This document shows positions 43,683 to 58,532 of a stretch of 64,000 bases of DNA, one piece after another. The stretch's first letter is position 1; each line of letters begins with the position of its first letter. The stretch lies in sequence record PQ850623.1. One strand, written 5' to 3'. The notes under the pieces are model-generated. The model saw only the letters and a list, made by a program, of their open reading frames with translations. It had not been told where the DNA came from and made no database searches. This DNA comes from Escherichia phage RudolfBernhard_Bas96. The position numbers were made by a program, and so were the translations under genes.

Positions 43683-46258
43683 GCGAATGCCTTTTGAATT
43701 ATTTGATTAACTTCTTCTGGGGTAGCGTGATTTGGAATCTCAATCTCGTTAGCCCACGTTGGGTAAAACAAGGATAGTTCCCCACCCAAACCAACTTCTG
43801 GATGAGCAATATCAGGATGGTCTTGCCAGTTAACGGCTTTAACCAAGTGCTTGTTCGTGTACTGCAAGGTATCCATGTTGTCACGAATCATGAAGTACTG
43901 AGCATCATGAATGTGAATACTAGGACGTATATCTAATCTGAACTCACTGGCTCTGACTTTACGCATAAATTCTGAACCAGCACGGTTATTCAGTAGACAC
44001 CAGCTTTGTCCCAAGGCATTACCAGCAGTTCTACCTTCAGCCTCTGCTTCATATGGAGTCTTACATGTCCCACGTAAAACCTGAGCCAGTAAAGGAGTAC
44101 GCACTCTCAAACCAAATGCAGCAGTTATATATCCAGTCTTGGCAGCTTCGTCTAGCTTAGCCTGAACCCACATATCACTAACTACATAGAGGTCGTGATA
44201 ACGTTTCTCTGTTGTTTTAGCTTTCTCTTCTGAGAAGCCACAGTTTTTCATCAAGCCCATGTACGTGCCACCATAGGTAAGCAAGAATGTTGGGGCTTTA
44301 GAATCACTACGCAAGTGCTTGTACTTCGTCTGAATAGAATTAATTGACTCAACTGTATCTACAATATCTGGCATCTGCTCACCGAAGTAAGCATACGCAC
44401 GAAGACTATGCCCATCGTAACCATCGGTATACACCTTAAGTTTCTGAGGGTCTTTCGTAGTCAATGCAGATATTCTGTCTTCCAGTGAGGCGAAGTCCAA
44501 ACCGCAAAATATCCAGCCAGGAGGGGCTTCGAAGCATTTCTTAATCTTCTTGGCATATTTAGAACCGGATGGAATTGTTTGTAGATTTGGCTCTGAAGCC
44601 GATAGCCTACCGGAGACTGTGCCTCCCAGATTGAGGTTGCCGAACAGATAGTGCCAGCCATCCGGCCCCGGTTGGGCATTCCTGAAAGCTGGTATAAAAC
44701 TAGTGATAATCTTATCCACGAGTTTATAGTCGATAAGTGCATTGAGCAGTTCCTTAACATCTTCACTCTGCGTATGTGTACGCAGTGCTTTAATAGTGTC
44801 ACCGTCAGTAGCAGGTTGCTTGCTCTTAGTAAGACTAAGAACCGGTAAACCAATGTAATCAAATAACAGTTTCTGTAATTGTGGACCGGAGTTAGGATTA
44901 AACTCGATGTCACAATCAGCCAATGTTACCTGCTTCTTCTTAAGCTTAGCATTCTTATCGTCTACCCATTCCTGACGAAGCATCAGGGTGAAATTCTTCA
45001 TGAGCTTAGACTCACGAATAGTTTTCAAAGCCTGGTTCCTGTCAGTTTCCATTTCTTCAGCCACTTGGTTAACGGTTTCCATATTCATAGGCATACCGGT
45101 TAACTGCATCTGAATAATGTCTTCACAGGCTGGTTTAAAGATGTTGTTGTAAACATCCAGTTGATCGTCAGCAATGAGAGTATCCCAGTGCTTCTCGTAG
45201 GTGTACCACGTACACAAACCATCAATGAGGTTGTAGCGTAACAGTTGCTCATTAGGAATAAGACGTATGTCTTTAATATCATCCTGAGCGTAGTTACCTG
45301 CATACTCCTGAGCCTGGTCTTTCAGACTAAGGTGATTACCAGCACAACTGTTAGTAGCCAGGTAGGTGATTAACTTAGTACAGTCCCAATTACGTAGCAT
45401 GATTTCCATGCCATGCAGTAAGCCTTCTGTATCAATCAGGTTATCCATGAATAACTGATAGATAAGTATGTACACGTCATAGCTAATGTTGTGATACATC
45501 TGCCGTTGAGTGTATTTAATGAAGAACTCACGCAATAGGTTACGAACAACATCATTCCTGTTGATACGCCCATAAGGAGCTTCAGTAGCCCCCTTAATTG
45601 GCTCGTAGTCCACATTAAAAGCTATGCCTTGTGTCTTACTCCAACAGAATGTAATCGTTCCTATGCCTGCGTTATAGTGCTTTAAACCGAAGGATTCGAT
45701 GTCTATAGCCAGAGGCTTATTCATCTCAAGCAACTGGTCTAGCCAGGCTTTAATCTTTTCGGGTGTATCTGGGTAGGCCTCAAACTCAATGATTCCCTGA
45801 CCTGGTTCAGCATACTGTCCACGAATGTGGTTAAGTAATGCATCCATACCCTGAGCAATCTTAGCTTTTACTACGGGTGGGTCGTAAAAGACCTGTCTGT
45901 AGCTGGGTGTATAGATAACCTTCTGCTTACCCCATACTGAGTCACAAACATAGCCGAGGTTAGCCTCTGCTTTAGCTTCTTTAGTCAGTATTTTGAAATA
46001 GTCAGAATCGGTACAGATAATGTACTGAGTCTCTGCATCGTCCAGTACTTGTTGCAGTTCCTGCTGTATGAACTCCTTAATCTCCCTTGCAGGAGTCTTC
46101 TTCTTGCCTGGGGCAGAATGAAGTTCAAGGAAGATGAAATCTTCCATACTTAGGTCATAAGGCAGCAGGTAGGTTTTAATCATCTCCTCCCTTCGGATTT
46201 GATGACCGAGGATAGCAATAGGATACTTGCCAGTATCCTGAGAGGTGATGTAACGCAT
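43679..46258 (-). CDS. DNA polymerase, family A (Pol I/T7-like) with 3'-5' exonuclease domain
   Basis: Exo I motif LAIDIESFGL; Pol motif A GLDFASLEDRI, motif B RSDSKAPTFLLTYGG, motif C IHIHDAQYF; AAGG RBS. Confidence 0.8.
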   Translation of the reverse strand: MRYITSQDTGKYPIAILGHQIRREEMIKTYLLPYDLSMEDFIFLELHSAPGKKKTPAREIKEFIQQELQQVLDDAETQYIICTDSDYFKILTKEAKAEANLGYVCDSVWGKQKVIYTPSYRQVFYDPPVVKAKIAQGMDALLNHIRGQYAEPGQGIIEFEAYPDTPEKIKAWLDQLLEMNKPLAIDIESFGLKHYNAGIGTITFCWSKTQGIAFNVDYEPIKGATEAPYGRINRNDVVRNLLREFFIKYTQRQMYHNISYDVYILIYQLFMDNLIDTEGLLHGMEIMLRNWDCTKLITYLATNSCAGNHLSLKDQAQEYAGNYAQDDIKDIRLIPNEQLLRYNLIDGLCTWYTYEKHWDTLIADDQLDVYNNIFKPACEDIIQMQLTGMPMNMETVNQVAEEMETDRNQALKTIRESKLMKNFTLMLRQEWVDDKNAKLKKKQVTLADCDIEFNPNSGPQLQKLLFDYIGLPVLSLTKSKQPATDGDTIKALRTHTQSEDVKELLNALIDYKLVDKIITSFIPAFRNAQPGPDGWHYLFGNLNLGGTVSGRLSASEPNLQTIPSGSKYAKKIKKCFEAPPGWIFCGLDFASLEDRISALTTKDPQKLKVYTDGYDGHSLRAYAYFGEQMPDIVDTVESINSIQTKYKHLRSDSKAPTFLLTYGGTYMGLMKNCGFSEEKAKTTEKRYHDLYVVSDMWVQAKLDEAAKTGYITAAFGLRVRTPLLAQVLRGTCKTPYEAEAEGRTAGNALGQSWCLLNNRAGSEFMRKVRASEFRLDIRPSIHIHDAQYFMIRDNMDTLQYTNKHLVKAVNWQDHPDIAHPEVGLGGELSLFYPTWANEIEIPNHATPEEVNQIIQKAFA

Positions 46259-46267
46259 AGCTTTACC

Positions 46268-46798
46268 TTAGAAGATCAGATGTGAAGCTGCATAGTACTC
46301 AATAGAAGGTAGAATCTTCTCATACTGTTTGATTGCCATAGCATCACCAGCAAGAGTCCAAGCTGCTTCACGAGTACGTGGTAGCCCTTTGTACTGACCA
46401 GTCTGGTCTTGTGCTACCAGACATTCAGGTAGAGCATCACGTACATCCTGATAGGACATACAACCACGAACCAGACGATATACAGTCTGGTTTACAAGGT
46501 GTACTTCCATAATCAGACGACTGGAGGCTTTCAGATACTTGTCCATTGCAGGCCAAAGTTCTGGATTAAGTGTTAACCGCTCACCGTAGGTTGGAGGTCT
46601 GGTAGCATTAGAACGCTGATAGAACTCCCCTTGATGAAGAAATCCAGCCGATACATCTACACCATTGATACGGTCATTCTTATCAATGATGCCATTTAAC
46701 ACACCATCAAGGCGAACCAGTTCTGCTAAGAACAGGTGCTTGACTATCTCACTACTATTGGCAACCTGACCAATAGTTGCTGAACCAATCTGAGGCAT
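46268..46798 (-). CDS. Hypothetical protein
   Basis: 176-aa ORF between helicase and polymerase. Confidence 0.35.
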   Translation of the reverse strand: MPQIGSATIGQVANSSEIVKHLFLAELVRLDGVLNGIIDKNDRINGVDVSAGFLHQGEFYQRSNATRPPTYGERLTLNPELWPAMDKYLKASSRLIMEVHLVNQTVYRLVRGCMSYQDVRDALPECLVAQDQTGQYKGLPRTREAAWTLAGDAMAIKQYEKILPSIEYYAASHLIF

Positions 46799-46808
46799 AT
46801 ACCCTCCC

Positions 46809-48119
46809 TTAGAAAGTTAGACCACCGTACTTACTGGCAAGATTGCCATAGAACACTACACGCTTACGGGCACGTGACACAGCGACGTAAAGCAGACGGG
46901 CAACCATATCAGGTTGGCGACAGCTTGAGAGGTCATTTGCATCAATGAAGATTGTGTCGTAAGTAGAGCCTTGTGATTTATGAACAGTACATGCATGAGT
47001 AGCACGCAGGTCTGGAATGGTTTCTTTAAGACGGAAGTAAGGTTCCCAGTTCTTCTCTTTACCTAACCACTTAACCAAACGGTTGAAGTAGTCTGGGTCA
47101 GTAGGAATTGGAACTTCACTAACAATACCACCATAACCAAGGTCTAGAGTACTATCACGGACTTCCAGTTCCAGGTCACCTGTAACCTTAATCATGCGAG
47201 TACTGCTATCCTGGTCAATGAGTTTTACGTCCTGCTCGATAGACAGACGGTCTTCCACGCCCAAGCGAACAGCAGAGTTAGATACCAACTGTTCACCAAT
47301 GGAGTATTCACCTACGTAGCCATTAGCTTCACGAATGTAGTTATTGTAATTAATAACCTGGTCATTGGTGTAAGCAACAATACGGCTATTGGTGGGTTGG
47401 GTGAAGTGACTGAGAACCAGTTTCTCCATCTCTTCCCCTTGCACCCAGTCAATAATGCCTGGAATACATTTAATAGGTAGGAAGCCTGTCTTACCTTCCA
47501 CCGTATCACGCAATTGCTGGTGCAATGCTTTGAGTTCTGGTGTATCGGTACGCATCTGTTCAGTCAGATAGTGTGTTGGGATATTGCCAGCATACACTGG
47601 AGACTTACTCTCTTTAACAGGTAGAAGCTGAGAAGCATCACCTACGAATACCAGTTTACACTGGTGAGTACCTTCACGAGCATACTTAAGTAACTGACGG
47701 TCAATCATGGATGCTTCGTCTACGAAGATAATTTTGTTCTTCTTAATATTGAATGATTTAGACGGTACAACATTAGCCTCACCAGTCTTAAAGTCATTCT
47801 TAACAATCAGCCCCTGAAAGGAATGATAGGTAGAGGTTGGACGCCCAGTAGCTTGAGCCAGAACTTCAGCAGCTTTGTTCGTGGTCGCAGTCATGACAAC
47901 TTCGTTATACAGGGGCTTGGTTCCCATTAGAGAACAGGTTTCCATATATGCAGGCATAGTGTCATCAATAAGGTGCGACATCAGGAATGTCTTACCAGTT
48001 CCTCCAGGTCCACTGATTCCGAACTCTGTGGCATTAGGGTCGAGCAGGAAGTCGAAGAACTCCTTCGCAACCGCTTCTTGCCCCTGGTTCAATGGGGCTT
48101 TGGTAGGTTTGGAAAACAT
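46809..48119 (-). CDS. SF1 DNA helicase (Dda/RecD-like)
   Basis: Walker A GPGGTGKTF, Walker B IFVDEASMID, C-terminal TVHKSQGSTYDTIFID; GGAGA RBS. Confidence 0.75.
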   Translation of the reverse strand: MFSKPTKAPLNQGQEAVAKEFFDFLLDPNATEFGISGPGGTGKTFLMSHLIDDTMPAYMETCSLMGTKPLYNEVVMTATTNKAAEVLAQATGRPTSTYHSFQGLIVKNDFKTGEANVVPSKSFNIKKNKIIFVDEASMIDRQLLKYAREGTHQCKLVFVGDASQLLPVKESKSPVYAGNIPTHYLTEQMRTDTPELKALHQQLRDTVEGKTGFLPIKCIPGIIDWVQGEEMEKLVLSHFTQPTNSRIVAYTNDQVINYNNYIREANGYVGEYSIGEQLVSNSAVRLGVEDRLSIEQDVKLIDQDSSTRMIKVTGDLELEVRDSTLDLGYGGIVSEVPIPTDPDYFNRLVKWLGKEKNWEPYFRLKETIPDLRATHACTVHKSQGSTYDTIFIDANDLSSCRQPDMVARLLYVAVSRARKRVVFYGNLASKYGGLTF

Positions 48120-48130
48120 TTAAATCTCCA

Positions 48131-48156
48131 GTAAAAAACCCTCCGTAGAGGGTTAG
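48131..48156 (-). terminator. Hairpin terminator (AACCCTC-TACGG-AGGGTT + T-run on minus strand) upstream of the helicase gene
   Basis: Stem at 48138-48155; minus-strand TTTTT immediately 3'. Confidence 0.45.
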
Positions 48157-48611
48157 ATGTAAGGGGTTAAATCCGGGGGAGTGTAGTCTTTCCCCTTCAT
48201 GACTTTCTTGTTCTCGTTGAAGATAGGTTCCCCATCTTCGAACTTGGAATAGTTTGAGCGATTGACTTCAGCCAATGCTCCAGGGACATTCATCCCAAGG
48301 AAAGTACCGACGCCAGTTGCTGTAACAATCTGATCTGCCAGTGCATCCAGTAGTTCTACTGAGTCTTTGATAACAATATTGTTATCCTTTTTAAGCAGGT
48401 TGCCTACATGGTCAATTGCTGCACGTAGTGCCTCGATTTGTGAGGCACGTTCCAGGTTTTTACTGGTAATAGCGTTTAGCATTTCTGCTACTTCTTCCAG
48501 ATGGCAACCAATCTGTGTATTGATGTTCTTACTCGTCGGATTCGGTACGGCTTTTAGAAACCATTGCCGTGTGTTTTCCAGCGTACAAACGGATGAACTT
48601 GTCATGCTCAC
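48153..48611 (-). CDS. Possible MazG-like all-alpha NTP pyrophosphohydrolase
   Basis: HLEEVAEMLNAI resembles the MazG EExxE metal-binding helix; weak call. Confidence 0.3.
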   Translation of the reverse strand: MSMTSSSVCTLENTRQWFLKAVPNPTSKNINTQIGCHLEEVAEMLNAITSKNLERASQIEALRAAIDHVGNLLKKDNNIVIKDSVELLDALADQIVTATGVGTFLGMNVPGALAEVNRSNYSKFEDGEPIFNENKKVMKGKDYTPPDLTPYI

Positions 48612-48954
48612 TCTCTTGGTTAAGGTGGCGATTATTATATGCCTCCAGAATCAAGTCCCTTACGTATGAACGAATCTCATAAGCAGGGCCAACTTGCTCT
48701 GATAGCCAATATACCACATGGGTTGGTAATGGACGGAGTACATTCTCCATGAACGTCCGACGTGTGTCGGCTGGTTCAATGTTTAAAGAACGCAATCGCA
48801 AAGTAACCGTAGTGGGGTGAACCCCCAACGTCTTAGCGATAGTTGCGAGGGACAGACCAACAGCATTCATACGAATGATGTCTTCATCAGTTGCTTTGCG
48901 ATTAACTCTGTAAACTTTACTCATAGTACATTTCCTCTTCAAATTTACCCTCAC
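48529..48954 (-). CDS. Helix-turn-helix DNA-binding protein
   Basis: GLSLATIAKTLGVHPTTVTLRL HTH-like segment; overlaps the downstream ORF by ~80 nt so one of the two boundaries is probably wrong. Confidence 0.35.
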   Translation of the reverse strand: MRVNLKRKCTMSKVYRVNRKATDEDIIRMNAVGLSLATIAKTLGVHPTTVTLRLRSLNIEPADTRRTFMENVLRPLPTHVVYWLSEQVGPAYEIRSYVRDLILEAYNNRHLNQESEHDKFIRLYAGKHTAMVSKSRTESDE

Positions 48955-49150
48955 TTTATTATAAGTGAGGGCATTTGAACAGGCTAGGACTGGTTCTTAT
49001 ACCATTCCCCGAACTCTTTCATTGCATCTTCTAAGGATAAGCCTTCGAAGAATTGACCAAAGTGTCCGTTGTACTTCACACAAATCCTTGTAACGGTTTG
49101 CTTTTGGGGTGTGATTACTTCCCGTATATCCACCTTATCAATGCTAACCA

Positions 49151-51202
49151 TTACTTAGCAGCCTTGACCAGCTTAGTAGCTAACTTAGCTTCTTCTTCAG
49201 TCAGTCCCATTGCAGTGAATGACTTCTTGGCATGACGCTTATAGTCTTGCAGAGCATGGCCTTTCTGATAGTCAGAGTAGGACGTATCGTTCAGGATGCT
49301 ACGCAGGTTATCAACGTGTTTACCAGACGGTGCTACCTTAGTGGCAGTAGCCGAGCGGTGAACCTTAGCTTGCTTCACTGGTTTTGGTTTGCCGATAGGT
49401 TTAGCTGTGTAAGTTGTACGTACATCTGCAATCTTAGCCACCACATCAGAACTAACACCTAAAGCAGCCCATGGCTTACGAGCCTTACCTCGCATTTCCA
49501 CAAGTAAATCAGCAGCAGCTAATTTATCTTCCGGGGAAGTAGCGTTAAGGAACTCTTTGATCAGTTCCTGAATTTGTTCTTTCACAGTAGGAGCCTTATT
49601 AACAATAGGTTTAAGGTCAGTAGCCTTCACTGGTTCAGCAGCTACAGCTTCATTTAGTGACTCTTCCATATTCAGTGCTTCTTTATTAGCAACTGTACGG
49701 AATTGTTCTACGGAACCGGATGAGAGATTGGTGTATTTGAGGTTAGTACCACGATGCCCACCAACCATAACAAGTGTGGTAGGTGAACTATGGTTCCCAA
49801 CGATGGCATCGTTAAGTAACTTCTTACCCACTTCTGTCTTAGACAGGTAGATACCATTGTTAACGTTGCAACGTTCCTCTTCCGGTAGTTCAGCAATAAT
49901 GTGATACGCAGCTACACGCATCTTATTAGTGTTGTACTCAGGAACAGCAAATACATCTTCTGGTGCTACTTTACCAAGGATAGTTACGTTACCACCGAAG
50001 GTACGGATGTAACTCATGGATGCTACGTGCAGGCCGTTGGAGCAGTCCTGACGACGGTCAGGGTCTACCAGGTCTTCTCGCACCTGTACTTTACAACCTA
50101 CCCACTGACGAATGTTGCCTGAGTGACAGTCAACGAATACACGTTTACCATTTTCTTCACCACTGAACTTAAGGCGTTTCAGGAACAGGATGGAACCATC
50201 ATCAGCAATAGGCAGTTCAGCAGTTTCCATGAACTTCATCAGGTCTTCTACTGAGTGCAGACGGTCTTTAATAACCGGAGCCAGACGTTCAAGGAACTTA
50301 GTAAAGCCCTTATAGTCTTTTAGCTGGGCAGACTGACGCAGGTGACGTTGCAGGTTCTCAACTCCAGGGATAACCCCATTGTTGGTAACAGCAACAACCA
50401 CTTCATCTTCCTTCACATCAGTGTGAAAGTAAGCATCATCGGTACTGATAGCACCTAATGCAGCCAGCTTCTCAGAAGCAGCAGCCAACTTATCCTGGTT
50501 CGTAGTTTTAGCTACTTCCACATAAGGCAGTGGTGTTTCCTCACGGTTGGTAAATACAACATGTACACCTTTGATGTTCTGGGCTTGTTTAGCAAACTCA
50601 CCCATTTCATCGTCAGATACTGCACGAATTCCAATTGGCCATTCTTGTGAAAGAGTATGGTTGGTATGGTCATAACCCCAGCCTAGTACGTCGTTAATAA
50701 AACGAACCAGTGCAGGATGGTTATGGTCTTTGCCCCAGCCAGTAACCCACATCAGATTGTCACGTTTGTCATAGTAACCATCTGCTACCGTTACTTCTGG
50801 TTCATTAGCCTGGACAGCCAGAAAAGTATCCATAGCTTTAGACACTAGCGTCTTAGTAGGATTACCTAGCTTAATATCTGAGACGGTACGGGCTGGTGAA
50901 ACACCTGTACCATCTTCGAAGAACTCTTTAAGTTTAGCTTTAGCTATCTTGAAGAAACGGACGAATCCGTTGGTGTTCTTTTCTGCTTCCAGGTATTCAG
51001 TACGTAGTTCTACTTCTGGTGCAATGTTTACTTCTATTTGGTCTTGGGTAGTACCCAGACCTTTAGTCTGTGCTTCAGATACAATGCGAGCAACCCGTGG
51101 GTCGCTCTGAGGATATACAACCGTGGAGCCATCAGGCTTCCACAGTGTGAGGTTTCGACTGTCAACTGCCAGTGCGATGATAGAAATCAATTCGATTTTC
51201 AT
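49151..51202 (-). CDS. rIIB-like protein (assigned by synteny immediately downstream of the rIIA-like gene)
   Basis: 683-aa ORF with start 5 nt after the rIIA-like stop; no independent motif. Confidence 0.35.
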   Translation of the reverse strand: MKIELISIIALAVDSRNLTLWKPDGSTVVYPQSDPRVARIVSEAQTKGLGTTQDQIEVNIAPEVELRTEYLEAEKNTNGFVRFFKIAKAKLKEFFEDGTGVSPARTVSDIKLGNPTKTLVSKAMDTFLAVQANEPEVTVADGYYDKRDNLMWVTGWGKDHNHPALVRFINDVLGWGYDHTNHTLSQEWPIGIRAVSDDEMGEFAKQAQNIKGVHVVFTNREETPLPYVEVAKTTNQDKLAAASEKLAALGAISTDDAYFHTDVKEDEVVVAVTNNGVIPGVENLQRHLRQSAQLKDYKGFTKFLERLAPVIKDRLHSVEDLMKFMETAELPIADDGSILFLKRLKFSGEENGKRVFVDCHSGNIRQWVGCKVQVREDLVDPDRRQDCSNGLHVASMSYIRTFGGNVTILGKVAPEDVFAVPEYNTNKMRVAAYHIIAELPEEERCNVNNGIYLSKTEVGKKLLNDAIVGNHSSPTTLVMVGGHRGTNLKYTNLSSGSVEQFRTVANKEALNMEESLNEAVAAEPVKATDLKPIVNKAPTVKEQIQELIKEFLNATSPEDKLAAADLLVEMRGKARKPWAALGVSSDVVAKIADVRTTYTAKPIGKPKPVKQAKVHRSATATKVAPSGKHVDNLRSILNDTSYSDYQKGHALQDYKRHAKKSFTAMGLTEEEAKLATKLVKAAK

Positions 51203-51206
51203 CAGA

Positions 51207-53768
51207 TTATTTACCTTTCAGTTTATTTAGACGATTACGGTAGAGGGACTTAAACCCAGGAATATCCTCTGGATTCTTCTTGAGATGTTTAACTAAACTA
51301 CCTAAGTCTAGGCTCTGTAGGATGTCACCAGCACTCCAGCTGTAACTGAATAGTCCTTTGTACTCGTTAAGTACTTCGAAATGCTTGTGCATACGAGGAT
51401 TAACCATCCTTACATATGGCTCTAAGACATCTACTGACTTAATGAGGCCCAGCTCAACAAGTCTCTCTTTGTTACGTGGATGGTTTCTTAGGAAGTCACA
51501 TGCCCATTCATATTCTGGTTTAAAAGTCAGACTCTGTAATGGTTTAAATGTTAGACCCAGGATGTCGAGGATTTCCCAATATTCTCTGTCATCCAGACCT
51601 ACGTATTCCAGAACACCGATACGCTGTTCAGTGGCATACTTCTTAAATCCCTTGCTGGTAATAACAGACATCAATTCATTAAGACGAATATCGTCAATGT
51701 GAATAGCACCACGGCGTTTGGCCTTGTTAACTTCGATTTGATTACGACAGACAACAGTCTCTGCTTTCATCTCATCAGATAACTCCCACCATTTCCACAT
51801 GGTTCCAATCTTGGCAGTTTCTGGTCTACCAGAAACAACCTGATTGGCTAGCACGTAGTACTTTGGCAGTTCTACTTCAACGAACCCGTATTTCTCATGA
51901 TAGATTGGATCAGCAAATTCACTCCGAATAAGTGGCTTGGATTCCCAATCACCACTCGTATTTCGTTCACGAATAGTACCTAGTACAGCATTCAATGAAA
52001 CCAGTGCATTAGTTTTACCTCCTGCTTTGGTTTTATTGGCAGCTATTGTCTTAGCACGCTTCTCAGCAGCTATCTTAGCTTGTTCTCTGCGGAAGTTAGT
52101 TGGCTTGTCCCACTCATTATACTGAGTAAGGTCAATTACCCGATAACCCATAGCAGTGAACTTAGCTACAGCTTTTTCTGCTTCCCCTTTCTTAGGACTA
52201 ACAACGTGAACAAAAGCAGTACGCTCCAGGTCACCTCGGTTGTATTCTGGGAAGTATGAGAAAGAATCTGCACAGTCAGATAAACGACGAGTAACTACAA
52301 CGTTCTTAGTAGTGAATATGCCAATACTCTGGTGGGAGTTATTGTATATCCTAAAGTAATCAGTGAGTTTACCTTTTACTAAGTCAACACGGTTACCCTG
52401 GTTCATTATGTAACCAGACCACTTAATACCTGTAGCTTTTAAAGCAGCAAGCTGAGGTAGGTGCAGATGACGGTATACTAAATCCTGGAATAAGGATGTA
52501 CCGTCTGCACGGGTATCCTTAAGAGCACTCATAGCTTTACTATACAGTTTCTTAAGACCTGCATACTCAGGGCGAGCTAATAATGCCTTATTGGATAGAT
52601 TACGCCAGTGCTTAATATGATGCTTACGTTGCTTAGCCCACAAGCTAGAGGACATATAGCGTTGAACGATTCTGTCTGTAACAGCACCCAGGAAAGACGG
52701 ATATTCCCAATAGCGAGTAGAAGATTCGGAGGCATACTCTTCAACCTGCTTAATGGCTTCAGGAATCTTAGCCTTAATCTCTTTCTCCATACGGTCTACT
52801 AAATCTACACATAGAGCAGTAATACCATCGTCGGTTAACTTCTGGTTAGATAGAGTTTCACGACTAGGGGCAATAGCTAAGGTGTCTGGTGCAGCCTGAA
52901 CTACTAAAGTCTCAGCACCAATGATATTCATAAAGTTGAGAATAAGACCTACAGCCTCTTCACTAGCTGGACTATATACTATTGGGTACATTACGTTACC
53001 GTAGCGAACGAAGATGTTACTGCTACCCATATAGCTTTGATACCAGCTATCAGACATATCATAAGAACCAGGTTCAAATGACATACCTAGTGTTTTTAGT
53101 AGAGTGTAGTCACCTTGCTGAATACTATTGCCTGTTTCTTCACGAATTAATTTGGGAAGACTAAGCTCAGCCTTAATCTCTCCGTTAAATACAATTGATG
53201 TGATGTAATGCACAAAGGTATTTACATCATGCTTACCCAGTTGGAATTTAACTTCCAGACCAGATTCCTCAGTAGGAATACCAGTAATGATAGGAACAAT
53301 ACCCGGTTTACCATCATTCTCAATTGCAGCCTTAGCTACGTTATATACCGACATCTTTCCTTGGTTCCATGAAGTAACCTGGAAGCTATCTGTATAAGCA
53401 AATGGGGATTTACAACCCAGACCAAAGCCACCAGTAACACTACTGTTGGACTTCTTAGTAGATGCACCATATACACCATAAATGGAACCAATGAGTTCAT
53501 CCGGGATACCGTTACCAAAGTCACGGAAAGTAATAAAATTGTCAGTATCAATGGTGATACGGATAGGAGTATCAGTATTACCTGCTTCAATATGAGCATC
53601 CCAACTGTTACAGATAGTCTCACGGACTACTGCCAGAGTAGGGTTGTTATATAAGGAAGTACTTAATACGTGAAAGAATGCCGGGTCATCAGAGATGCCA
53701 AAGGCGATTGCTTCTTTGCCACCCAGTGTCGCTGAAGTGGCTGATTGATTGGTATCTGCAACTAACAT
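51207..53768 (-). CDS. rIIA-like protein with N-terminal GHKL (histidine-kinase-like) ATPase domain
   Basis: GHKL motifs: N-box ETICNSWDAH, G1 RDFGNGIP, G2 GGFGLGCK; GGAGAG RBS. Confidence 0.6.
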   Translation of the reverse strand: MLVADTNQSATSATLGGKEAIAFGISDDPAFFHVLSTSLYNNPTLAVVRETICNSWDAHIEAGNTDTPIRITIDTDNFITFRDFGNGIPDELIGSIYGVYGASTKKSNSSVTGGFGLGCKSPFAYTDSFQVTSWNQGKMSVYNVAKAAIENDGKPGIVPIITGIPTEESGLEVKFQLGKHDVNTFVHYITSIVFNGEIKAELSLPKLIREETGNSIQQGDYTLLKTLGMSFEPGSYDMSDSWYQSYMGSSNIFVRYGNVMYPIVYSPASEEAVGLILNFMNIIGAETLVVQAAPDTLAIAPSRETLSNQKLTDDGITALCVDLVDRMEKEIKAKIPEAIKQVEEYASESSTRYWEYPSFLGAVTDRIVQRYMSSSLWAKQRKHHIKHWRNLSNKALLARPEYAGLKKLYSKAMSALKDTRADGTSLFQDLVYRHLHLPQLAALKATGIKWSGYIMNQGNRVDLVKGKLTDYFRIYNNSHQSIGIFTTKNVVVTRRLSDCADSFSYFPEYNRGDLERTAFVHVVSPKKGEAEKAVAKFTAMGYRVIDLTQYNEWDKPTNFRREQAKIAAEKRAKTIAANKTKAGGKTNALVSLNAVLGTIRERNTSGDWESKPLIRSEFADPIYHEKYGFVEVELPKYYVLANQVVSGRPETAKIGTMWKWWELSDEMKAETVVCRNQIEVNKAKRRGAIHIDDIRLNELMSVITSKGFKKYATEQRIGVLEYVGLDDREYWEILDILGLTFKPLQSLTFKPEYEWACDFLRNHPRNKERLVELGLIKSVDVLEPYVRMVNPRMHKHFEVLNEYKGLFSYSWSAGDILQSLDLGSLVKHLKKNPEDIPGFKSLYRNRLNKLKGK

Positions 53769-53795
53769 TTATTTACTCTCCAGTTTAAATGTTGC

Positions 53796-53987
53796 TTATA
53801 GAAGTACTTGTTTACACTTATAAAAAATAGCTTTACGTAGTTCAGCTTCTTCCAGTGGTTCATCATTAGGATGATGACCTACTGGACTGTTTTGAAAAGC
53901 ACTCATTAGGAATAAGACCTGATATTCGGTTAAGCCATTAATCTGAATGCTATACGTTTTCTCTGAGGCGATGTTTACATTAGCCAT
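53796..53987 (-). CDS. Small hypothetical protein
   Basis: Internal ATG of track ORF 53796..54107 chosen to minimise overlap with the upstream gene. Confidence 0.25.
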   Translation of the reverse strand: MANVNIASEKTYSIQINGLTEYQVLFLMSAFQNSPVGHHPNDEPLEEAELRKAIFYKCKQVLL

Positions 53988-54354
53988 TGCGTTTACCCGC
54001 CATTGCTTGAAGAACGAATACAGCCATATCTGATGCCATATCGTCAGTAATGTCATTAACCGTACCGTAAGGTAACGGACCATTATCTTCCCAGTTATCG
54101 AGTACATTCTGCACTTCAGCTAATCCAGCCTGAATCATCTCTTTGTTTGGTTCTAGCCATAATTTACGTTCCTCTGCCAGTGCAGCAATGCACATACACA
54201 AGGAAGCGATATTAGCTGGGCAAGCAGCAATATCACCGGTAACTGCAATATCACTAAGTGGAACAGCCTTACCAGTTTTACTATGAATAACTTCAGGATT
54301 AATCACGGATTTGCTCCAGGTTGTGGGCAGGAATAGGGAAACATGGATAGTCAC
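53980..54354 (-). CDS. Hypothetical protein
   Basis: 124-aa ORF. Confidence 0.3.
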   Translation of the reverse strand: MTIHVSLFLPTTWSKSVINPEVIHSKTGKAVPLSDIAVTGDIAACPANIASLCMCIAALAEERKLWLEPNKEMIQAGLAEVQNVLDNWEDNGPLPYGTVNDITDDMASDMAVFVLQAMAGKRNG

Positions 54355-54520
54355 CGGTAGGATCCAGTGTTACTGATACATGCAGTGTATTTGTCATTTG
54401 GGTTAACATCAGAGCAGCATTGAAATCGTCTTGGATACAGGCATATACAATGTCACCCTTCTCACCCTCACACATTATAGGTGTGTCTTTGATACGGTAT
54501 TTAGCAGGCATATTATTTCC

Positions 54521-54775
54521 TTATTTTTTACTAACAATGGGGTTTCTGTAATTCCAGGCTTTACTAAGTTTTTCTAACTTAAATCCTGCATACCCATATT
54601 CTTTAGACAGGATTTCTTCTGCAATATCCAATGCATTAATTTTGCATAAACGCCCGTCTATGCAGATGTTTTTAAAACTACCGACGGATTCCCTGTATAG
54701 TCCATTGGAATCTTTCTCCAACATAGTTGCATACCAACTTGCCATAAATCCTCCTGGGACAGTAATTGAAACCAA
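54521..54775 (-). CDS. Hypothetical protein
   Basis: 84-aa ORF. Confidence 0.3.
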   Translation of the reverse strand: MVSITVPGGFMASWYATMLEKDSNGLYRESVGSFKNICIDGRLCKINALDIAEEILSKEYGYAGFKLEKLSKAWNYRNPIVSKK

Positions 54776-54800
54776 AAAAAGACCTCCCGGAGGAGGTCTT
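54771..54800 (-). terminator. Rho-independent terminator (GACCTCCTCC-GG-GAGGTC + T7 on minus strand)
   Basis: Hairpin at 54781-54799; plus-strand A-run 54774-54780 gives the minus-strand T-run. Confidence 0.55.
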
Positions 54801-54804
54801 AGGT

Positions 54805-55041
54805 TTACTTACGATTCCGTCCTACGAATTGTAATAGACGTTCCTTAGCATCATCCTGTTCCTTGATAGCTACATAGTCGCGTGCATAGTAATACACACA
54901 CCATAAGCCAATAGAACATGCAGAATATCGAGCCACTACGAAGAACATCTCTTCCAGGCTCTGTGCACCATGCAGTGTAAATACAAATTCCAGAACCAGG
55001 ATGATACTTATAAACATTGCTTGAATAGCTAAACGTTTCAT
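54805..55041 (-). CDS. Small two-TM membrane protein
   Basis: Hydrophobic segments AIQAMFISIILVLEFVF and CSIGLWCVYYYA. Confidence 0.35.
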   Translation of the reverse strand: MKRLAIQAMFISIILVLEFVFTLHGAQSLEEMFFVVARYSACSIGLWCVYYYARDYVAIKEQDDAKERLLQFVGRNRK

Positions 55042-55982
55042 TCTGTAATTGTTTCTCCGGGAATTAGTTTACGGAATTGGATGAAATCCAGTAAGTTGCC
55101 TGAATATAGCTTACCTTCACGGTCCATTGAAGTAACACCCTGTTCCCAGGTTAATGGGTTCTGGTTGTTAACAAACTTGGTACTGAAGTCCATCGGGGTA
55201 GCCTGATGTTCAGTAGGTGATGCATGAATTGGCTGTTTCTCTACCAACTTAGCAAACAGAACAAGATCATCACTGATAGTAGATGGCTTGCCTTCAAAGT
55301 TGTTATAGGAGGCACGAGCACAACGAGCAGCAGAGACTTTAAGCAGTAGACCTAAAATTTCTCCATCACTTGGTTCATCACGAGTAATTCGTTGATATTT
55401 GCAATGATTGTAAGCATTAGCACAATCAGTATTGCGAATATAAGGCAGATGCCAGTCACCTTTCTTGAGCTTTTGCGGAACAGATTCTTCATGAGCCTTC
55501 TTCATGGCCTGAGCCAGTAAACGGATTTCCGGTTGGGCATCTTCATGGTCACGTAAGCCATAGAAGTTAGCCCAGCTAGTTGAAGTTACCACTACACGGA
55601 TATGTGTGAATGGTTCCAGAATACGGTTAACAATCTGCTTATGTACTTGTCCACGACGCAGTTGTTCAGCATATACAGCAGCAGCAGATGCAGCGTTATC
55701 CCAGATAAACTTAGCATCCTCAATCTCCATAGGAGTGAGTTCTTCTTCTGCTTGCATACCTTTCTGATTCTTGCCCCAGTGACTTGGCATCACTGGTTCA
55801 TTACGAACCTGCTCGATGAACTTAGACGTAGGTATAGCACGACTGCTTGAAGCATTGCGGTTGAATACACGGTGAGTCATAAACTCACTGTGAATGAATC
55901 GGGGGTAGACCAATTCAAAGGTAGTAATACGAGTACCAGTTGCATGATGAACGGAATCTGCAATGACAGTTGCCTTAATCAT
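55038..55982 (-). CDS. thyX: Flavin-dependent thymidylate synthase (ThyX-like)
   Basis: ThyX signature-like HR-x7-S-xSR (MTHRVFNRNASSSRAIP). Confidence 0.55.
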   Translation of the reverse strand: MIKATVIADSVHHATGTRITTFELVYPRFIHSEFMTHRVFNRNASSSRAIPTSKFIEQVRNEPVMPSHWGKNQKGMQAEEELTPMEIEDAKFIWDNAASAAAVYAEQLRRGQVHKQIVNRILEPFTHIRVVVTSTSWANFYGLRDHEDAQPEIRLLAQAMKKAHEESVPQKLKKGDWHLPYIRNTDCANAYNHCKYQRITRDEPSDGEILGLLLKVSAARCARASYNNFEGKPSTISDDLVLFAKLVEKQPIHASPTEHQATPMDFSTKFVNNQNPLTWEQGVTSMDREGKLYSGNLLDFIQFRKLIPGETITE

Positions 55983-56425
55983 TAGAATGACCTTAGATAG
56001 TTGGTTATACCACTACGGCTTTCTGTAATCCTCTTGGCCTGAACATACACCAGCTTAAACTCACTACGAGGCAGTTCCTGTAATATTGCTATACCTTCAG
56101 TAAGAGCCACAGAACACGCTACAGCGGTTTCTTTTTTAAAGGAGTACAAGTCTTCATACATGAGGGCTTCATACTCTTTCCGGAGCATACAGAGAGCATC
56201 TCTTGCCTTATCACTTACTTCTTGTGAACCAGCAGACATAGCTAAGCTGTATATGATAAAGACTTGTTCGAAAACAAAGTCCAGTAATCTATCAGGGGTA
56301 TTAGTCCCCATAAATAATTTTGTTGCGTAGGAACGGGCCTTACGGTTGAGTTCATACTCATCCTCTATACCTTTATTATAAAGAACAGGATTCCGTTCCC
56401 TTTTTCTTAGAAATGGGATACGCAT
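55982..56425 (-). CDS. Hypothetical protein
   Basis: 147-aa ORF. Confidence 0.3.
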   Translation of the reverse strand: MRIPFLRKRERNPVLYNKGIEDEYELNRKARSYATKLFMGTNTPDRLLDFVFEQVFIIYSLAMSAGSQEVSDKARDALCMLRKEYEALMYEDLYSFKKETAVACSVALTEGIAILQELPRSEFKLVYVQAKRITESRSGITNYLRSF

Positions 56426-56910
56426 TAGTATTTACTACCTCTTCTATACCAAGGGTAATGATGGGTAGTGCTCTTACCTTTAAACACATCCTTAGTACGA
56501 GGATTCTTTTGTATTTGAGCCAGGTAAAGATGCATTTCGTCACACGGACTAAGCCAGAACTTATCTATGATTCGGTCTACCTTAGATTTTAGATGAGGCT
56601 CAGGAGGGATGTATGGGAAAACATTAAATGATCTACTAGTCCATCCTTTCTGAATAGCAGCTTGCATTGCTGCGTAAACATCAGGACCAATTCCATTTTC
56701 TTCTACTTGGTCATGTATAGTTTTGCCTAAAGTAAGCATTGCAGTTTGTTCCAGTTTACTTAAGTCCAGTCCATATAAGATAGACTTACCATTTTGTCTG
56801 TTTGACATAAGAGTACCTGTAATTAAAAAAGCCCACGGGTTAGGTGGGCTTGGATTAGGAGATGGATAAGCAATGAGCTGGAAGTAACTTCCACAAGCAC
56901 CACTATACAA
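56425..56910 (-). CDS. Hypothetical protein
   Basis: 161-aa ORF. Confidence 0.3.
   Translation of the reverse strand: MYSGACGSYFQLIAYPSPNPSPPNPWAFLITGTLMSNRQNGKSILYGLDLSKLEQTAMLTLGKTIHDQVEENGIGPDVYAAMQAAIQKGWTSRSFNVFPYIPPEPHLKSKVDRIIDKFWLSPCDEMHLYLAQIQKNPRTKDVFKGKSTTHHYPWYRRGSKY
56822..56850 (-). terminator. Rho-independent terminator (GCCCACCTAACCCGTGGGC + T-run on minus strand)
   Basis: Hairpin at 56831-56849; plus-strand A-run 56825-56830. Confidence 0.5.
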
Positions 56911-56925
56911 TGATGCTTAGGTTAG

Positions 56926-57222
56926 TTACTTATCAGACTGGCTCGTTTGAGACACGTTGTACTGGTTCCCACTACCAACGTTAACGATTGTAGTCTGAGA
57001 CTGTCCTTTATTAGACAGTGACCAAATCAGTGCTACTACCCAGAAGACTAAAGACCAGCCTAATACGATATTGAGTACACCAATGCCCCACTTAGAGACA
57101 TGGCCCCGTGCAAAAGCAATAATGGTAGGGATAAGGTATACAGCTAGTGCAAATAAAAGAACGAGGATTGCTGCTAAAGATTCCATGATGGTTCCTATGT
57201 GGGGTTGAGTTAGTTTCTTCAC
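56926..57222 (-). CDS. Superinfection-immunity (Imm)-like small membrane protein
   Basis: YLIPTIIAFARGHVSKWGIGVLNIVLGWSLVFWVVALIWSL resembles the Imm_superinfect family pattern as I remember it; two predicted TM helices. Confidence 0.45.
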   Translation of the reverse strand: MKKLTQPHIGTIMESLAAILVLLFALAVYLIPTIIAFARGHVSKWGIGVLNIVLGWSLVFWVVALIWSLSNKGQSQTTIVNVGSGNQYNVSQTSQSDK

Positions 57223-57259
57223 AAATAGCCCAACTATGCTGGGCTATTTAGGCAGCTAC

Positions 57260-57472
57260 TTACTCATCTAAAGCTTTACGAACGTAACCACGTACTGAAC
57301 GATAGCTTTCTTTTGCAGTTACAGTTCGTCCATCAATGAGATGAATTACAGCACCAGCCGGAGTTTCATCTACATCTACTACGTTAGTTGCAACAATAGT
57401 TTTACGCTGGGTACTGTCAACAGGAGTTACTTGAAATACAGACATGTTGTTTCCTTTAGGCATTTCTGCCAT
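57260..57472 (-). CDS. Small hypothetical protein
   Basis: 70-aa ORF. Confidence 0.3.
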   Translation of the reverse strand: MAEMPKGNNMSVFQVTPVDSTQRKTIVATNVVDVDETPAGAVIHLIDGRTVTAKESYRSVRGYVRKALDE

Positions 57473-58022
57473 GGTTGGGGTTATAACCGAAAAGTATTTC
57501 GGCTTCTTTTCTTGTGGCTACTGCGTCATCTAACTCAGCAAACCATCCCAGGTGGATTTTATTCCCATTATCATAAATGGAAACATTCCATAAATTATGA
57601 CGTTTACTATAGCTTACTCCGTGGTAACCACTTGTATTATTCGAGCTTAATGCCCTATTTTTTAAGTTATCTGACCTTGACCGGCTAAATAAATTAAAAT
57701 GCCTGTTATTAGTGCGTACACCATCATCATGGTCTATATCTTCTGGCTCAGTACCATGAAGCATTTTCCAGATAATACGGTGAGCATAGTAAAACTCACC
57801 ATTTAATGTTCCGCGCAAATAACCATTTTTAGATAATGAGGCTAGTGCAGGTTTCCCTGCCCATGCAGAATTCCATACATTAGCTACATGTTCTGGACTT
57901 CTTAGTGGGTTGCTGTTAAATGTCCACTCTGGTCTTACCTTCCAGGTTAATCCCCCAGTTAGTGGGTCATAATCTAAGCAAGCTAGTAACAACAAGCGAT
58001 TTGGTAAAACCTTTGCTTTCAT
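57456..58022 (-). CDS. HNH homing endonuclease with AP2 DNA-binding domain
   Basis: HNH_3-like YAHRIIWKMLHG...IDHDDGVRTNNRHFNL and AP2-like SGYHGVSYSKRHNLWNVSIYDNGNKIHLGWFAELDDAVATRKEAE. Confidence 0.6.
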   Translation of the reverse strand: MKAKVLPNRLLLLACLDYDPLTGGLTWKVRPEWTFNSNPLRSPEHVANVWNSAWAGKPALASLSKNGYLRGTLNGEFYYAHRIIWKMLHGTEPEDIDHDDGVRTNNRHFNLFSRSRSDNLKNRALSSNNTSGYHGVSYSKRHNLWNVSIYDNGNKIHLGWFAELDDAVATRKEAEILFGYNPNHGRNA

Positions 58023-58025
58023 TTT

Positions 58026-58532
58026 TTACTTACTTTCCCTAGCCTCTACCGGCATATTCGGTTGATTATTGTACTTGCCATTGTAATTAGCAGGCTCTTG
58101 AACCAGATGAAATAATACTTGAGCTATCCCAGCACCAGCCGGGATATGCAGTTTCTTGCGACCTTGATAGACCAGTTCGAGGGTAAGATACCCTTTCCAT
58201 CCTGGTTCTATTACGGTATTGAACACTGATAATGCACGCCTTGCCCAGGTAGATTTATCGTGAACGATTGCTACACAGGAAGGGGACATGTTGAACTTCT
58301 CAATTGCTGAAGCCAATGCGAATTTACCGAAGTGGCGTTTAACAACCCCAGCATCGACAGTCTTCACCATTGGAATCAACCCAAATAAGCGATAGAAGGT
58401 GATGTCTTGTTTGATACGAATATCATAACCGGCTTCACCTAATCCATAACTTACACCATGCTCGGATACCTTACGGTCTGGTACATCCAGCAATTGAGAT
58501 GAACGGTATAGAGAATTACCATTAACAACCAT
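58026..58532 (-). CDS. dCTP deaminase / dUTPase-superfamily protein
   Basis: IEPGWKGYLTLELVYQG and GAGIAQVLFH resemble Dcd/dUTPase-fold motifs. Confidence 0.5.
   Translation of the reverse strand: MVVNGNSLYRSSQLLDVPDRKVSEHGVSYGLGEAGYDIRIKQDITFYRLFGLIPMVKTVDAGVVKRHFGKFALASAIEKFNMSPSCVAIVHDKSTWARRALSVFNTVIEPGWKGYLTLELVYQGRKKLHIPAGAGIAQVLFHLVQEPANYNGKYNNQPNMPVEARESK

What the first reader, a model, noticed from the sequence alone, without database searches (positions are those of the whole stretch)
56926..57222. Imm-like superinfection-immunity membrane protein
The 98-aa two-TM protein has a motif (AFARGH...NIVLGWSLVFWVVALIWSL) resembling the T4 Imm superinfection-immunity family, implying this phage blocks DNA injection by secondary infecting phages. 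It is flanked by strong terminators, so it may be an independently expressed moron-like gene.
Basis: inference. Interest (0 to 1): 0.4.

Follow-up and report, generated by a model that had tools for sequence, protein, structure and literature searches.

The report
Imm-family gene in N4-like podophage
This small membrane-protein gene is a true relative of the phage T4 'immunity to superinfection' protein, sits in a G7C-like (N4-like) coliphage, and is already annotated that way in the phage's close relatives, so it is ordinary, although its target in a phage with no tape measure protein is unknown.

Summary
The protein matches Pfam PF14373 (Imm_superinfect) at 59.7 bits against a cutoff of 27.9, over the whole profile. 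T4 Imm itself scores 58.2 bits. The two proteins share 32% identity (E 4e-10), including the two residues (T4 R33 and W50) whose mutation weakens T4 exclusion.

The window is a Gamaleyavirus, a G7C-like, N4-like podovirus. The type phage G7C already annotates this gene as gp27.1, "immunity to superinfection", so the finding is already known.

- The likely start is ATG 57186 (86 aa), not GTG 57222 (98 aa).
- The AlphaFold2 model shows four short helices plus a disordered tail, not a plain two-TM protein.
- Only the downstream hairpin is a canonical terminator. The upstream one has a weak U-tract.
- The downstream terminator belongs to the N4-type backbone, and N4 has a different hairpin at the upstream position. 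The gene is an insertion between them relative to N4.
- No promoter of its own was found, and its GC content equals the background.

Function is inferred, not shown. T4 Imm acts by binding the T4 tape measure protein, which podoviruses lack. PF14373 homologs are also widespread next to bacterial housekeeping genes.

The parts
56926..57186 (-). Imm-family CDS: 86 aa plus stop, equivalent to G7C gp27.1
   Evidence: PF14373 at 59.7 bits against a 27.9 cutoff, full profile. PHROG 1039 at E 7e-34. 32% identity to T4 Imm, E 4e-10. dN/dS 0.03-0.19. AlphaFold2 mean pLDDT 82, four helices. Relatives annotate their products from the homologous ATG: 86 aa in E20, F22, Mimir124 and G7C, 80 aa in PhAPEC7.
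57187..57222 (-). 5' leader, which is the in-frame extension of the 98-aa ORF from GTG 57222. AGGA Shine-Dalgarno sequence at 57193-57196.
   Evidence: Read from the sequence. Only 3 of 37 columns vary among 8 phages. The leader motif is unique in the window.
57223..57249 (-). Upstream hairpin AAATAGCCCAGC-ATA-GTTGGGCTATTT, directly after the stop of the gp27-like gene
   Evidence: Centroid fold -17.4 kcal/mol, z -3.8. It contains a G.U pair, so it folds better on the minus-strand RNA. The 10-bp base of the stem is invariant in 8 phages. G7C annotates a stem_loop here. N4 has a different hairpin at the same position. The terminator scan did not call it.
56883..56930 (-). Long hairpin overlapping the imm stop codon, with no U-tract
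   Evidence: Part of the -34.8 kcal/mol fold of the 116-nt 3' region, z -4.35. 6 of 48 columns vary among 8 phages, and some of the changes keep pairing (G.U to A-U, U-A to U.G).
56823..56851 (-). Intrinsic-terminator-like hairpin AAGCCCAC-CTAACCC-GTGGGCTT followed by TTTTTT
   Evidence: Called by the scan. -12.5 kcal/mol, z -4.9. 1 of 29 columns varies. Annotated by ARNold in PhAPEC7. N4 has the homologous element (GCCCAC..GTGGGCTTTTTTAATTA) between gp27 and gp28.
57260..57445 (-). Upstream backbone gene, homolog of N4 gp27 (61 aa from MSVFQ...)
   Evidence: BLASTP against N4 gp27: 41% identity, E 6e-9. PHROG 7594 at E 1.5e-29, aligned from residue 10 of the 70-aa ORF.
56425..56808 (-). Downstream backbone gene, homolog of N4 gp28 (127 aa)
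   Evidence: PHROG 12812 at E 2e-71, aligned from residue 35 of the 161-aa ORF. PhAPEC7_27 is noted as similar to N4 gp28.

Best explanation
The gene encodes an 86-aa inner-membrane protein of the Imm (PF14373) family, carried as an accessory gene by a virulent G7C-like (Gamaleyavirus, N4-like) coliphage.

It most likely is transcribed with the neighbouring middle (DNA-metabolism) genes and inserts into the cytoplasmic membrane of the infected cell. There it most likely prevents phages that adsorb later from moving their DNA across the inner membrane, by binding the periplasm-exposed, membrane-inserting part of the incoming phage's ejection machinery. This is what T4 Imm is reported to do with the T4 tape measure protein.

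Shown here: homology, fold, purifying selection, accessory status, and constrained flanking hairpins.

Inferred: membrane location, timing of expression, the exclusion phenotype and the target.

This phage has no tape measure protein. The target would therefore have to be one of two things. It could be the N4-type ejectosome (gp51, gp50 N-terminal domain, gp52) of sibling phages. Or it could be the tape measure proteins of competing myoviruses or siphoviruses.
For: - Family membership: PF14373 at 59.7 bits, full profile, equal to T4 Imm's own 58.2 bits. BLASTP against T4 Imm gives 32% identity over 69 aa, E 4e-10, aligned from Met1 of both proteins, with similar lengths of 86 and 83 aa.
- T4 residues R33 and W50, whose mutation lowers exclusion, align with R27 and W44 here.
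- The AlphaFold2 model has an N-terminal helix plus a compact hydrophobic helical core and a disordered tail. This matches the description of T4 Imm. The only Foldseek hits are phage 'superinfection immunity' proteins.
- Strong purifying selection, dN/dS 0.03-0.19.
- The gene appears to be kept across the genus: 53 phage records carry a copy at 80% identity or more, and 60 records match the surrounding 2.7-kb locus.
- It lies in the pre-replicative nucleotide-metabolism block between dCTP deaminase and ThyX. T4 imm similarly lies next to gene 42.
- N4 shows superinfection-triggered lysis inhibition, so superinfection is biologically relevant in this phage group.
Against: - No exclusion phenotype has been tested for any N4-like Imm homolog.
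- The T4 mechanism needs a tape measure protein. The window has no gp29-like sequence and no Spackle homolog, and N4-type phages deliver DNA through gp50, gp51 and gp52.
- By a crude hydropathy scan, the gp51-like protein here has no strongly hydrophobic segment.
- PF14373 is a huge family. In all six bacterial loci sampled, the identifiable neighbours were housekeeping or ordinary cellular genes (gyrB/plsY, nusG, rpiA/dnaK), with no phage genes among them. The family name therefore rests on one characterised member.
- The Bp4 copy carries a frameshift that truncates the tail.
Confidence: 0.55

Rival explanations
1. The protein is an Imm-family member, but its role is in lysis timing or protection of the infected cell's envelope rather than in blocking DNA entry. 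It might tolerate or signal secondary adsorption, or support lysis inhibition.
For: T4 imm mutants show partly defective lysis inhibition and reduced resistance to lysis from without, and Imm has been said to resemble a holin (PMC6832632). N4 shows superinfection-triggered lysis inhibition that works through membrane proteins.
Against: The gene lies in the middle-gene DNA-metabolism block on the opposite strand from the late structural genes, not beside any identifiable lysis gene. N4 itself shows lysis inhibition yet has no Imm homolog. The direct T4 evidence points to blocked genome translocation.
Confidence: 0.12
2. It is a generic small membrane protein whose activity is unrelated to other phages, for example membrane homeostasis as in the many bacterial chromosomal PF14373 genes. 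On this view the 'superinfection immunity' label is annotation carry-over.
For: 7801 clusters at 50% identity. 317 bacterial and archaeal loci were found from two narrow peptide patterns, spanning Alphaproteobacteria, Actinomycetes, Chloroflexota, Bacteroidota, candidate phyla radiation bacteria and an archaeon. In six of six sampled loci the identifiable neighbours were housekeeping or ordinary cellular genes. There was no PADLOC or NCBIfam hit.
Against: Unrelated virulent phages carry the family in early or accessory positions: T-even-like phages, AP22-like Acinetobacter myoviruses and Bas79-like siphoviruses, the last in an islet next to the tape measure gene. The residues needed for T4 exclusion are conserved.
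Confidence: 0.2
3. It is a self-contained moron, that is, a cassette with its own promoter and terminator, expressed independently of the neighbouring operon. The upstream hairpin would then act as a hairpin-type promoter rather than a terminator.
For: The gene is inserted relative to N4. Its flanks are more conserved (12% variable columns) than third codon positions (38%). In the N4-like phage LUZ7, middle promoters are GC-rich hairpins with 3-4 nt loops about 15 bp upstream of the start site (PMC9163698). The upstream hairpin here has a 3-nt loop and ends 36 nt before the ATG.
Against: N4 has a hairpin at the same position and the same downstream terminator without any imm gene, so these elements belong to the backbone. 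N4-type RNAPII promoters are reported as AT-rich linear motifs, not hairpins. The G.U pair favours an RNA-level hairpin. The leader motif is not repeated elsewhere in the window. Sigma-70-like sites are not above chance. GC content equals the background.
Confidence: 0.2

Closest known systems
Phage T4 Imm (immunity to superinfection; Pfam PF14373, PHROG 1039)
   Same: Same Pfam family at an equal score. 32% identity, aligned from Met1. Similar lengths (86 and 83 aa). N-terminal hydrophobic helix, then a P-x3-A-x2-R-G motif, then a W-rich hydrophobic core, then a short polar tail with a TIVNV/VIIIR-like stretch. T4 R33 and W50 are conserved. Both genes have an in-frame upstream alternative start (98 aa here, 94 aa in T4). 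Both lie in a pre-replicative nucleotide-metabolism region of a virulent coliphage.
   Different: The host phage is a podovirus with no tape measure protein, which is T4 Imm's reported binding partner, and with no Spackle homolog. The exclusion phenotype is untested. The position-29 His that is near-invariant in the family is Ser in T4.
G7C gp27.1 and the orthologs in about 50 Gamaleyavirus genomes (E20_32, PhAPEC7_26, Bp4 orf62, Moo19, St11Ph5)
   Same: Orthologous gene at the same locus. 98% amino-acid identity to E20 and 88% to ShWW44 over the full length; 85-92% to other genus members over the aligned 71-86% of the protein. Same flanking hairpins. Already annotated as 'immunity to superinfection' or 'membrane immunity protein'.
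   Different: This copy has V30 where seven relatives have A30. It carries the long (86-aa) tail allele. An extra HNH endonuclease gene lies two genes upstream.
HK97 gp15 and colicin pore-former immunity proteins (functional analogues)
   Same: Small inner-membrane proteins proposed to block membrane insertion of an incoming pore-forming protein.
   Different: No sequence relationship was tested or claimed. HK97 gp15 is expressed from a prophage, whereas this phage is virulent.

Membership tests
Pfam PF14373 Imm_superinfect (T4 Imm family) | Profile HMM score above the curated gathering threshold, over the full domain | tested here: met
   59.7 bits against a 27.9 cutoff, profile positions 1-42 of 42. 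T4 Imm scores 58.2 bits in the same scan.
Pfam PF14373 Imm_superinfect (T4 Imm family) | Conserved core residues (P20, A24, R27, H29, I35, N39, G43, W49, W55 in this protein's numbering) | tested here: met
   All are present. They are invariant or at least 90% conserved in a 40-sequence alignment that includes T4, AP22 and Bas79 homologs.
Pfam PF14373 Imm_superinfect (T4 Imm family) | Small protein (about 60-100 aa) with an N-terminal hydrophobic helix, a compact hydrophobic helical core and a short polar tail | tested here: met
   Hydropathy blocks at residues 1-28 and 33-59. AlphaFold2 helices at 2-17, 19-26, 32-42 and 46-57, with a low-confidence tail. Foldseek hits only phage Imm-like proteins.
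T4 Imm mechanism (exclusion by binding the tape measure protein) | Residues required for T4 exclusion (R33, W50) are present | tested here: met
   They align with R27 and W44. The mutant data come from bioRxiv 10.64898/2026.03.06.709160.
T4 Imm mechanism (exclusion by binding the tape measure protein) | A cognate tape measure protein in the same phage type to serve as the target | tested here: not met
   T4 gp29 gave no tblastn hit in the window even at E 10. The phage is an N4-like podovirus whose ejection proteins are gp50, gp51 and gp52.
T4 Imm mechanism (exclusion by binding the tape measure protein) | Inner-membrane location with the N-terminus in the periplasm | not testable with these tools
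   Only hydropathy and the AlphaFold2 model are available.
T4 Imm mechanism (exclusion by binding the tape measure protein) | Exclusion phenotype: normal adsorption with blocked DNA entry | not testable with these tools
   This needs plating and DNA-entry assays. No published test for N4-like phages was found.
Moron (independently transcribed accessory cassette) | Inserted between genes that are adjacent in related phages | tested here: met
   N4 has gp27, a hairpin, a terminator and gp28 with no gene in between. Here imm lies between the hairpin and the conserved CATTGCTTA-plus-terminator element. PhAPEC7 notes no N4 counterpart.
Moron (independently transcribed accessory cassette) | Own promoter | tested here: inconclusive
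   There are only 36 nt between the hairpin and the ATG, with no sigma-70-like site there. Sigma-70-like sites in the region are at or below chance. The promoter rules for G7C-type RNAPII are unknown.
Moron (independently transcribed accessory cassette) | Own terminator | tested here: inconclusive
   A canonical terminator follows the gene. It is homologous to the N4 gp27-gp28 terminator, so it belongs to the backbone and not to the cassette.
Moron (independently transcribed accessory cassette) | Base composition different from the surrounding genome | tested here: not met
   GC is 0.429 for imm against a mean of 0.431 (sd 0.029) for 261-nt windows of 46000-64000.

The most novel reading that the evidence does not exclude
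T4 Imm is now reported to work by binding a tape measure protein, and this phage has none. The Gamaleyavirus Imm may therefore recognise a different kind of target. One candidate is the inner-membrane end of the N4-type ejectosome (gp51 C-terminus or gp50 N-terminal domain) of sibling phages. The other is the tape measure proteins of unrelated competitor phages, in which case it would be a cross-morphotype exclusion weapon. Either result would show that the PF14373 fold is a general adaptor for blocking inner-membrane genome translocation, not a partner specific to tape measure proteins.
Probability: 0.3. Interest if true: 0.5.

Novelty: already known. Interest (0 to 1): 0.15.

Why it matters
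As an annotation it adds nothing new. The type phage G7C and dozens of GenBank relatives already carry the same label.

Its residual value is as a test case. An Imm homolog that is kept under purifying selection in a podovirus without a tape measure protein offers a simple way to find out how general the newly proposed T4 Imm-tape measure mechanism is. The experiment is plasmid expression, a plating panel and mapping of escape mutants. The same experiment would show whether exclusion proteins of this family act within or across phage morphotypes, which matters when designing phage cocktails.

Tried and rejected
- Sequence search of the PDB found no meaningful hit. The one hit, a designed helical-repeat protein, is compositional. 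Foldseek against the PDB found nothing.
- NCBIfam and PADLOC gave no family for Imm or either neighbour.
- T4 gp29 (tape measure protein) and T4 Spackle gave nothing significant by tblastn against the window.
- tblastn of the window Imm and T4 Imm against the 8-kb N4 locus gave nothing significant.
- A genome scan with the 40-sequence alignment failed because no stretch was conserved enough. It was repeated with a narrower alignment.
- The word-indexed protein search returned almost only genus members and few names.
- Lu et al. 1993 on Imm topology (PMC237878) is not held in the library.
- The leader sequence was tested as a repeated promoter-like motif. It is unique in the window.
- Sigma-70-like promoters are not enriched.
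- Covariation could not test the hairpins. Among 8 genomes at about 90-95% identity, the stems are nearly invariant.
- 'Not a real gene' was rejected on the HMM score, conservation and dN/dS.
- 'Holin' was rejected on genomic position and homology.

Full report
**Observation**

The minus strand carries an ORF at 56926..57222 (98 aa from GTG) that contains the quoted motif. PF14373 Imm_superinfect gives E 3.5e-16 and 59.3 bits against a gathering cutoff of 27.9, covering profile positions 1-42 of 42. PHROG 1039, 'immunity to superinfection', matches at E 7e-34.

I fetched T4 imm from NC_000866. It scores 58.2 bits in the same scan, against 59.7 bits for the window protein read from its ATG. The two proteins align from Met1 with 32% identity over 69 residues, E 4e-10. 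The observation and the family assignment are therefore confirmed.

**Gene model**

The likely start is ATG 57186, giving 86 aa.
- An AGGA Shine-Dalgarno sequence lies 6 nt upstream (57193-57196).
- GTG 57222 abuts the foot of a hairpin and has no Shine-Dalgarno sequence.
- Relatives annotate their products from the homologous ATG: 86 aa in E20, F22, Mimir124 and G7C, 80 aa in PhAPEC7.

Over codons 1-61, dN/dS among eight Gamaleyavirus copies is 0.03-0.19, so this is a real gene under selection.

Hydropathy gives two hydrophobic blocks, residues 1-28 and 33-59. An AlphaFold2 model built on 36 homologs (mean pLDDT 82) splits them into helices 2-17, 19-26, 32-42 and 46-57, followed by a low-confidence polar tail. 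This agrees with the published description of T4 Imm as an N-terminal helix plus a conserved hydrophobic helical core. Foldseek finds nothing in the PDB. In BFVD it finds only phage 'superinfection immunity' proteins.

**Which phage, and is this new?**

The window is a Gamaleyavirus, that is, a G7C-like, N4-like podovirus of the Schitoviridae. It is about 94-96% identical to phages E20, F22 and PhAPEC7.

The type phage G7C annotates the ortholog as gp27.1, 'immunity to superinfection; similar to Imm of phage JS98'. PhAPEC7, E20, Bp4, Mimir124 and F22 carry equivalent labels. In the phage collection, 53 records have a copy at 80% identity or more, and 60 records match the surrounding 2.7-kb locus. 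The finding is therefore already known at the annotation level. I found no functional test of the gene in any N4-like phage.

**Locus anatomy**

N4 has, in order: gp26 (dCTP deaminase), gp27, a hairpin, the motif CATTGCTTA, a terminator (GCCCAC..GTGGGCTTTTTTAATTA) and gp28.

- The window's 57260..57445 product is the N4 gp27 homolog (41% identity, E 6e-9).
- The gene at 56425..56808 is the gp28 homolog.
- The CATTGCTTA-plus-terminator element is recognisably conserved at 56823-56870.
- The imm gene, its 36-nt leader and a long hairpin over its stop codon (56883-56930) lie between the position of the backbone hairpin and that conserved element.
- The N4 locus has no Imm homolog, and PhAPEC7's annotators noted none anywhere in N4.

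So the gene is an accessory insertion in the genus. The downstream terminator is backbone, not part of a mobile cassette, and N4 has its own, different hairpin at the upstream position.

Only the downstream hairpin (56829-56851, 8 bp followed by T6) meets terminator criteria. It is one of about six such hairpins that punctuate the minus-strand early and middle genes.

The upstream hairpin (57223-57249) is strong, at -17.4 kcal/mol and z -3.8. It contains a G.U pair, which favours an RNA-level role. It is followed by only UUUGUG.

The flanks are constrained. Twelve percent of non-coding columns vary among eight phages, against 38% of third codon positions in imm.

I found no promoter between the hairpin and the ATG. 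Sigma-70-like sites are at or below chance. The leader motif is unique in the window. GC content equals the background, 0.429 against 0.431.

One caveat applies. In the N4-like phage LUZ7, middle promoters are GC-rich hairpins about 15 bp upstream of the start site, so a promoter role for the upstream hairpin cannot be excluded. N4 RNAPII promoters, in contrast, are described as AT-rich linear motifs.

**Mechanism**

A 2026 preprint (10.64898/2026.03.06.709160) reports that T4 Imm co-purifies with, and binds, the helical-bundle domain of the T4 tape measure protein gp29. It also reports that R33A and W50A reduce exclusion. Both residues are conserved here, as R27 and W44. Across a 40-sequence alignment, P20, I35, W49 and W55 are invariant, and A24, R27, H29, N39 and G43 are at least 90% conserved.

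The best-supported reading is an inner-membrane protein, made before replication, that blocks genome translocation by later-arriving phages.

This phage, however, has no tape measure protein, and neither T4 gp29 nor T4 Spackle has a homolog in the window. N4-type phages deliver DNA through gp52 (outer-membrane channel), gp51 (periplasmic tunnel) and the gp50 N-terminal domain (inner-membrane complex) (PMC13434306). The target is therefore unknown. It could be the sibling ejectosome or the tape measure proteins of competitors.

**Caution on transferring function**

PF14373 is a very large family.
- 7801 clusters at 50% identity reach E 1e-3 or better among 1.84 billion representatives.
- Two narrow peptide patterns alone recover 317 loci in bacterial and archaeal genomes across many phyla.
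- In six of six bacterial loci examined, the identifiable neighbours were housekeeping or ordinary cellular genes, with no phage genes: dnaN-gyrB and plsY, nusG, rpiA and dnaK, and gerAC with a sigma factor.

The family name thus rests on one characterised member.

In the other direction, unrelated phages carry the family in accessory positions. AP22-like Acinetobacter myoviruses are the closest homologs outside the genus, at about 62% identity in the core. The siphovirus Bas79 carries a copy in an opposite-strand islet next to its tape measure gene.

**Verdict**

The family assignment is correct and the gene is real, but it is already annotated in relatives. The exclusion function is plausible (about 0.55) but untested. 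The independent-moron idea is only partly supported. Interest is low. The one open question is what an Imm protein targets in a phage type that has no tape measure protein.

Noticed in passing
window 57456-58022 (-): A free-standing HNH endonuclease gene (PF13392, PHROG 99) lies between the dCTP deaminase and the gp27-like gene. It is absent at this position from E20, PhAPEC7, F22, Mimir124, UE-S5a, Bp4 and G7C. It has no DNA match in 50,697 phage records, and its best protein match is only 46% identical (Sulfitobacter phages). It is probably a recently acquired homing endonuclease.
   Followed up: partly
window 57250-57300 (-) and loci L001, L002, L008-L012: The C-terminal end of the gp27-like gene exists in three unrelated variants among Gamaleyaviruses. 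Similarity resumes exactly at the stop codon and upstream hairpin, which suggests a recombination breakpoint there.
   Followed up: partly
window 56929-57003 (-); L001, L010, L011: The polar C-terminal tail of Imm has two alleles: 86 aa (...SQTTIVNVGSGNQYNVSQTSQSDK) and 80 aa (...NQVTNVTVVQTNGGSKAE). Phage Bp4 has a 1-nt deletion that truncates the protein to 67 aa. The tail is therefore variable and possibly dispensable.
   Followed up: partly
window 56830-56850 and 57227-57245: The only two AGCCCA-N(3-12)-TGGGCT hairpins in the 64-kb window are the two that flank imm (0.09 expected by chance). This could be a duplicated terminator stem left by the insertion, or it could be coincidence.
   Followed up: no
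window 56883-56930 (-): A long, conserved hairpin with no U-tract begins on the imm stop codon. Its role is unknown. It could affect RNA stability, processing or translational coupling.
   Followed up: no
L012 (G7C) 3120-3243: G7C lacks the gp28-like gene that follows the terminator in the window and in six other relatives.
   Followed up: no
L007 (Escherichia phage Bas79) 2618-3541: A siphovirus carries an Imm-like gene in a small opposite-strand islet between the major tail protein gene and the tape measure protein gene. This placement is suggestive, given the reported interaction between T4 Imm and the tape measure protein.
   Followed up: no
L016, L017, L022, L063, L086, L091 (bacterial genomes): PF14373 homologs sit next to housekeeping or ordinary cellular genes: dnaN-gyrB and plsY in Helicobacter cholecystus, nusG in Devosia, rpiA, a LysR regulator and dnaK in an Orbaceae genome, and gerAC with a sigma factor in Alteribacter. 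None of the identifiable neighbours is a phage gene.
   Followed up: partly
window 57098-57100 (-), codon 30 of Imm: This copy has Val30 (GHVSKW), whereas all seven compared relatives have Ala30 (GHASKW).
   Followed up: no
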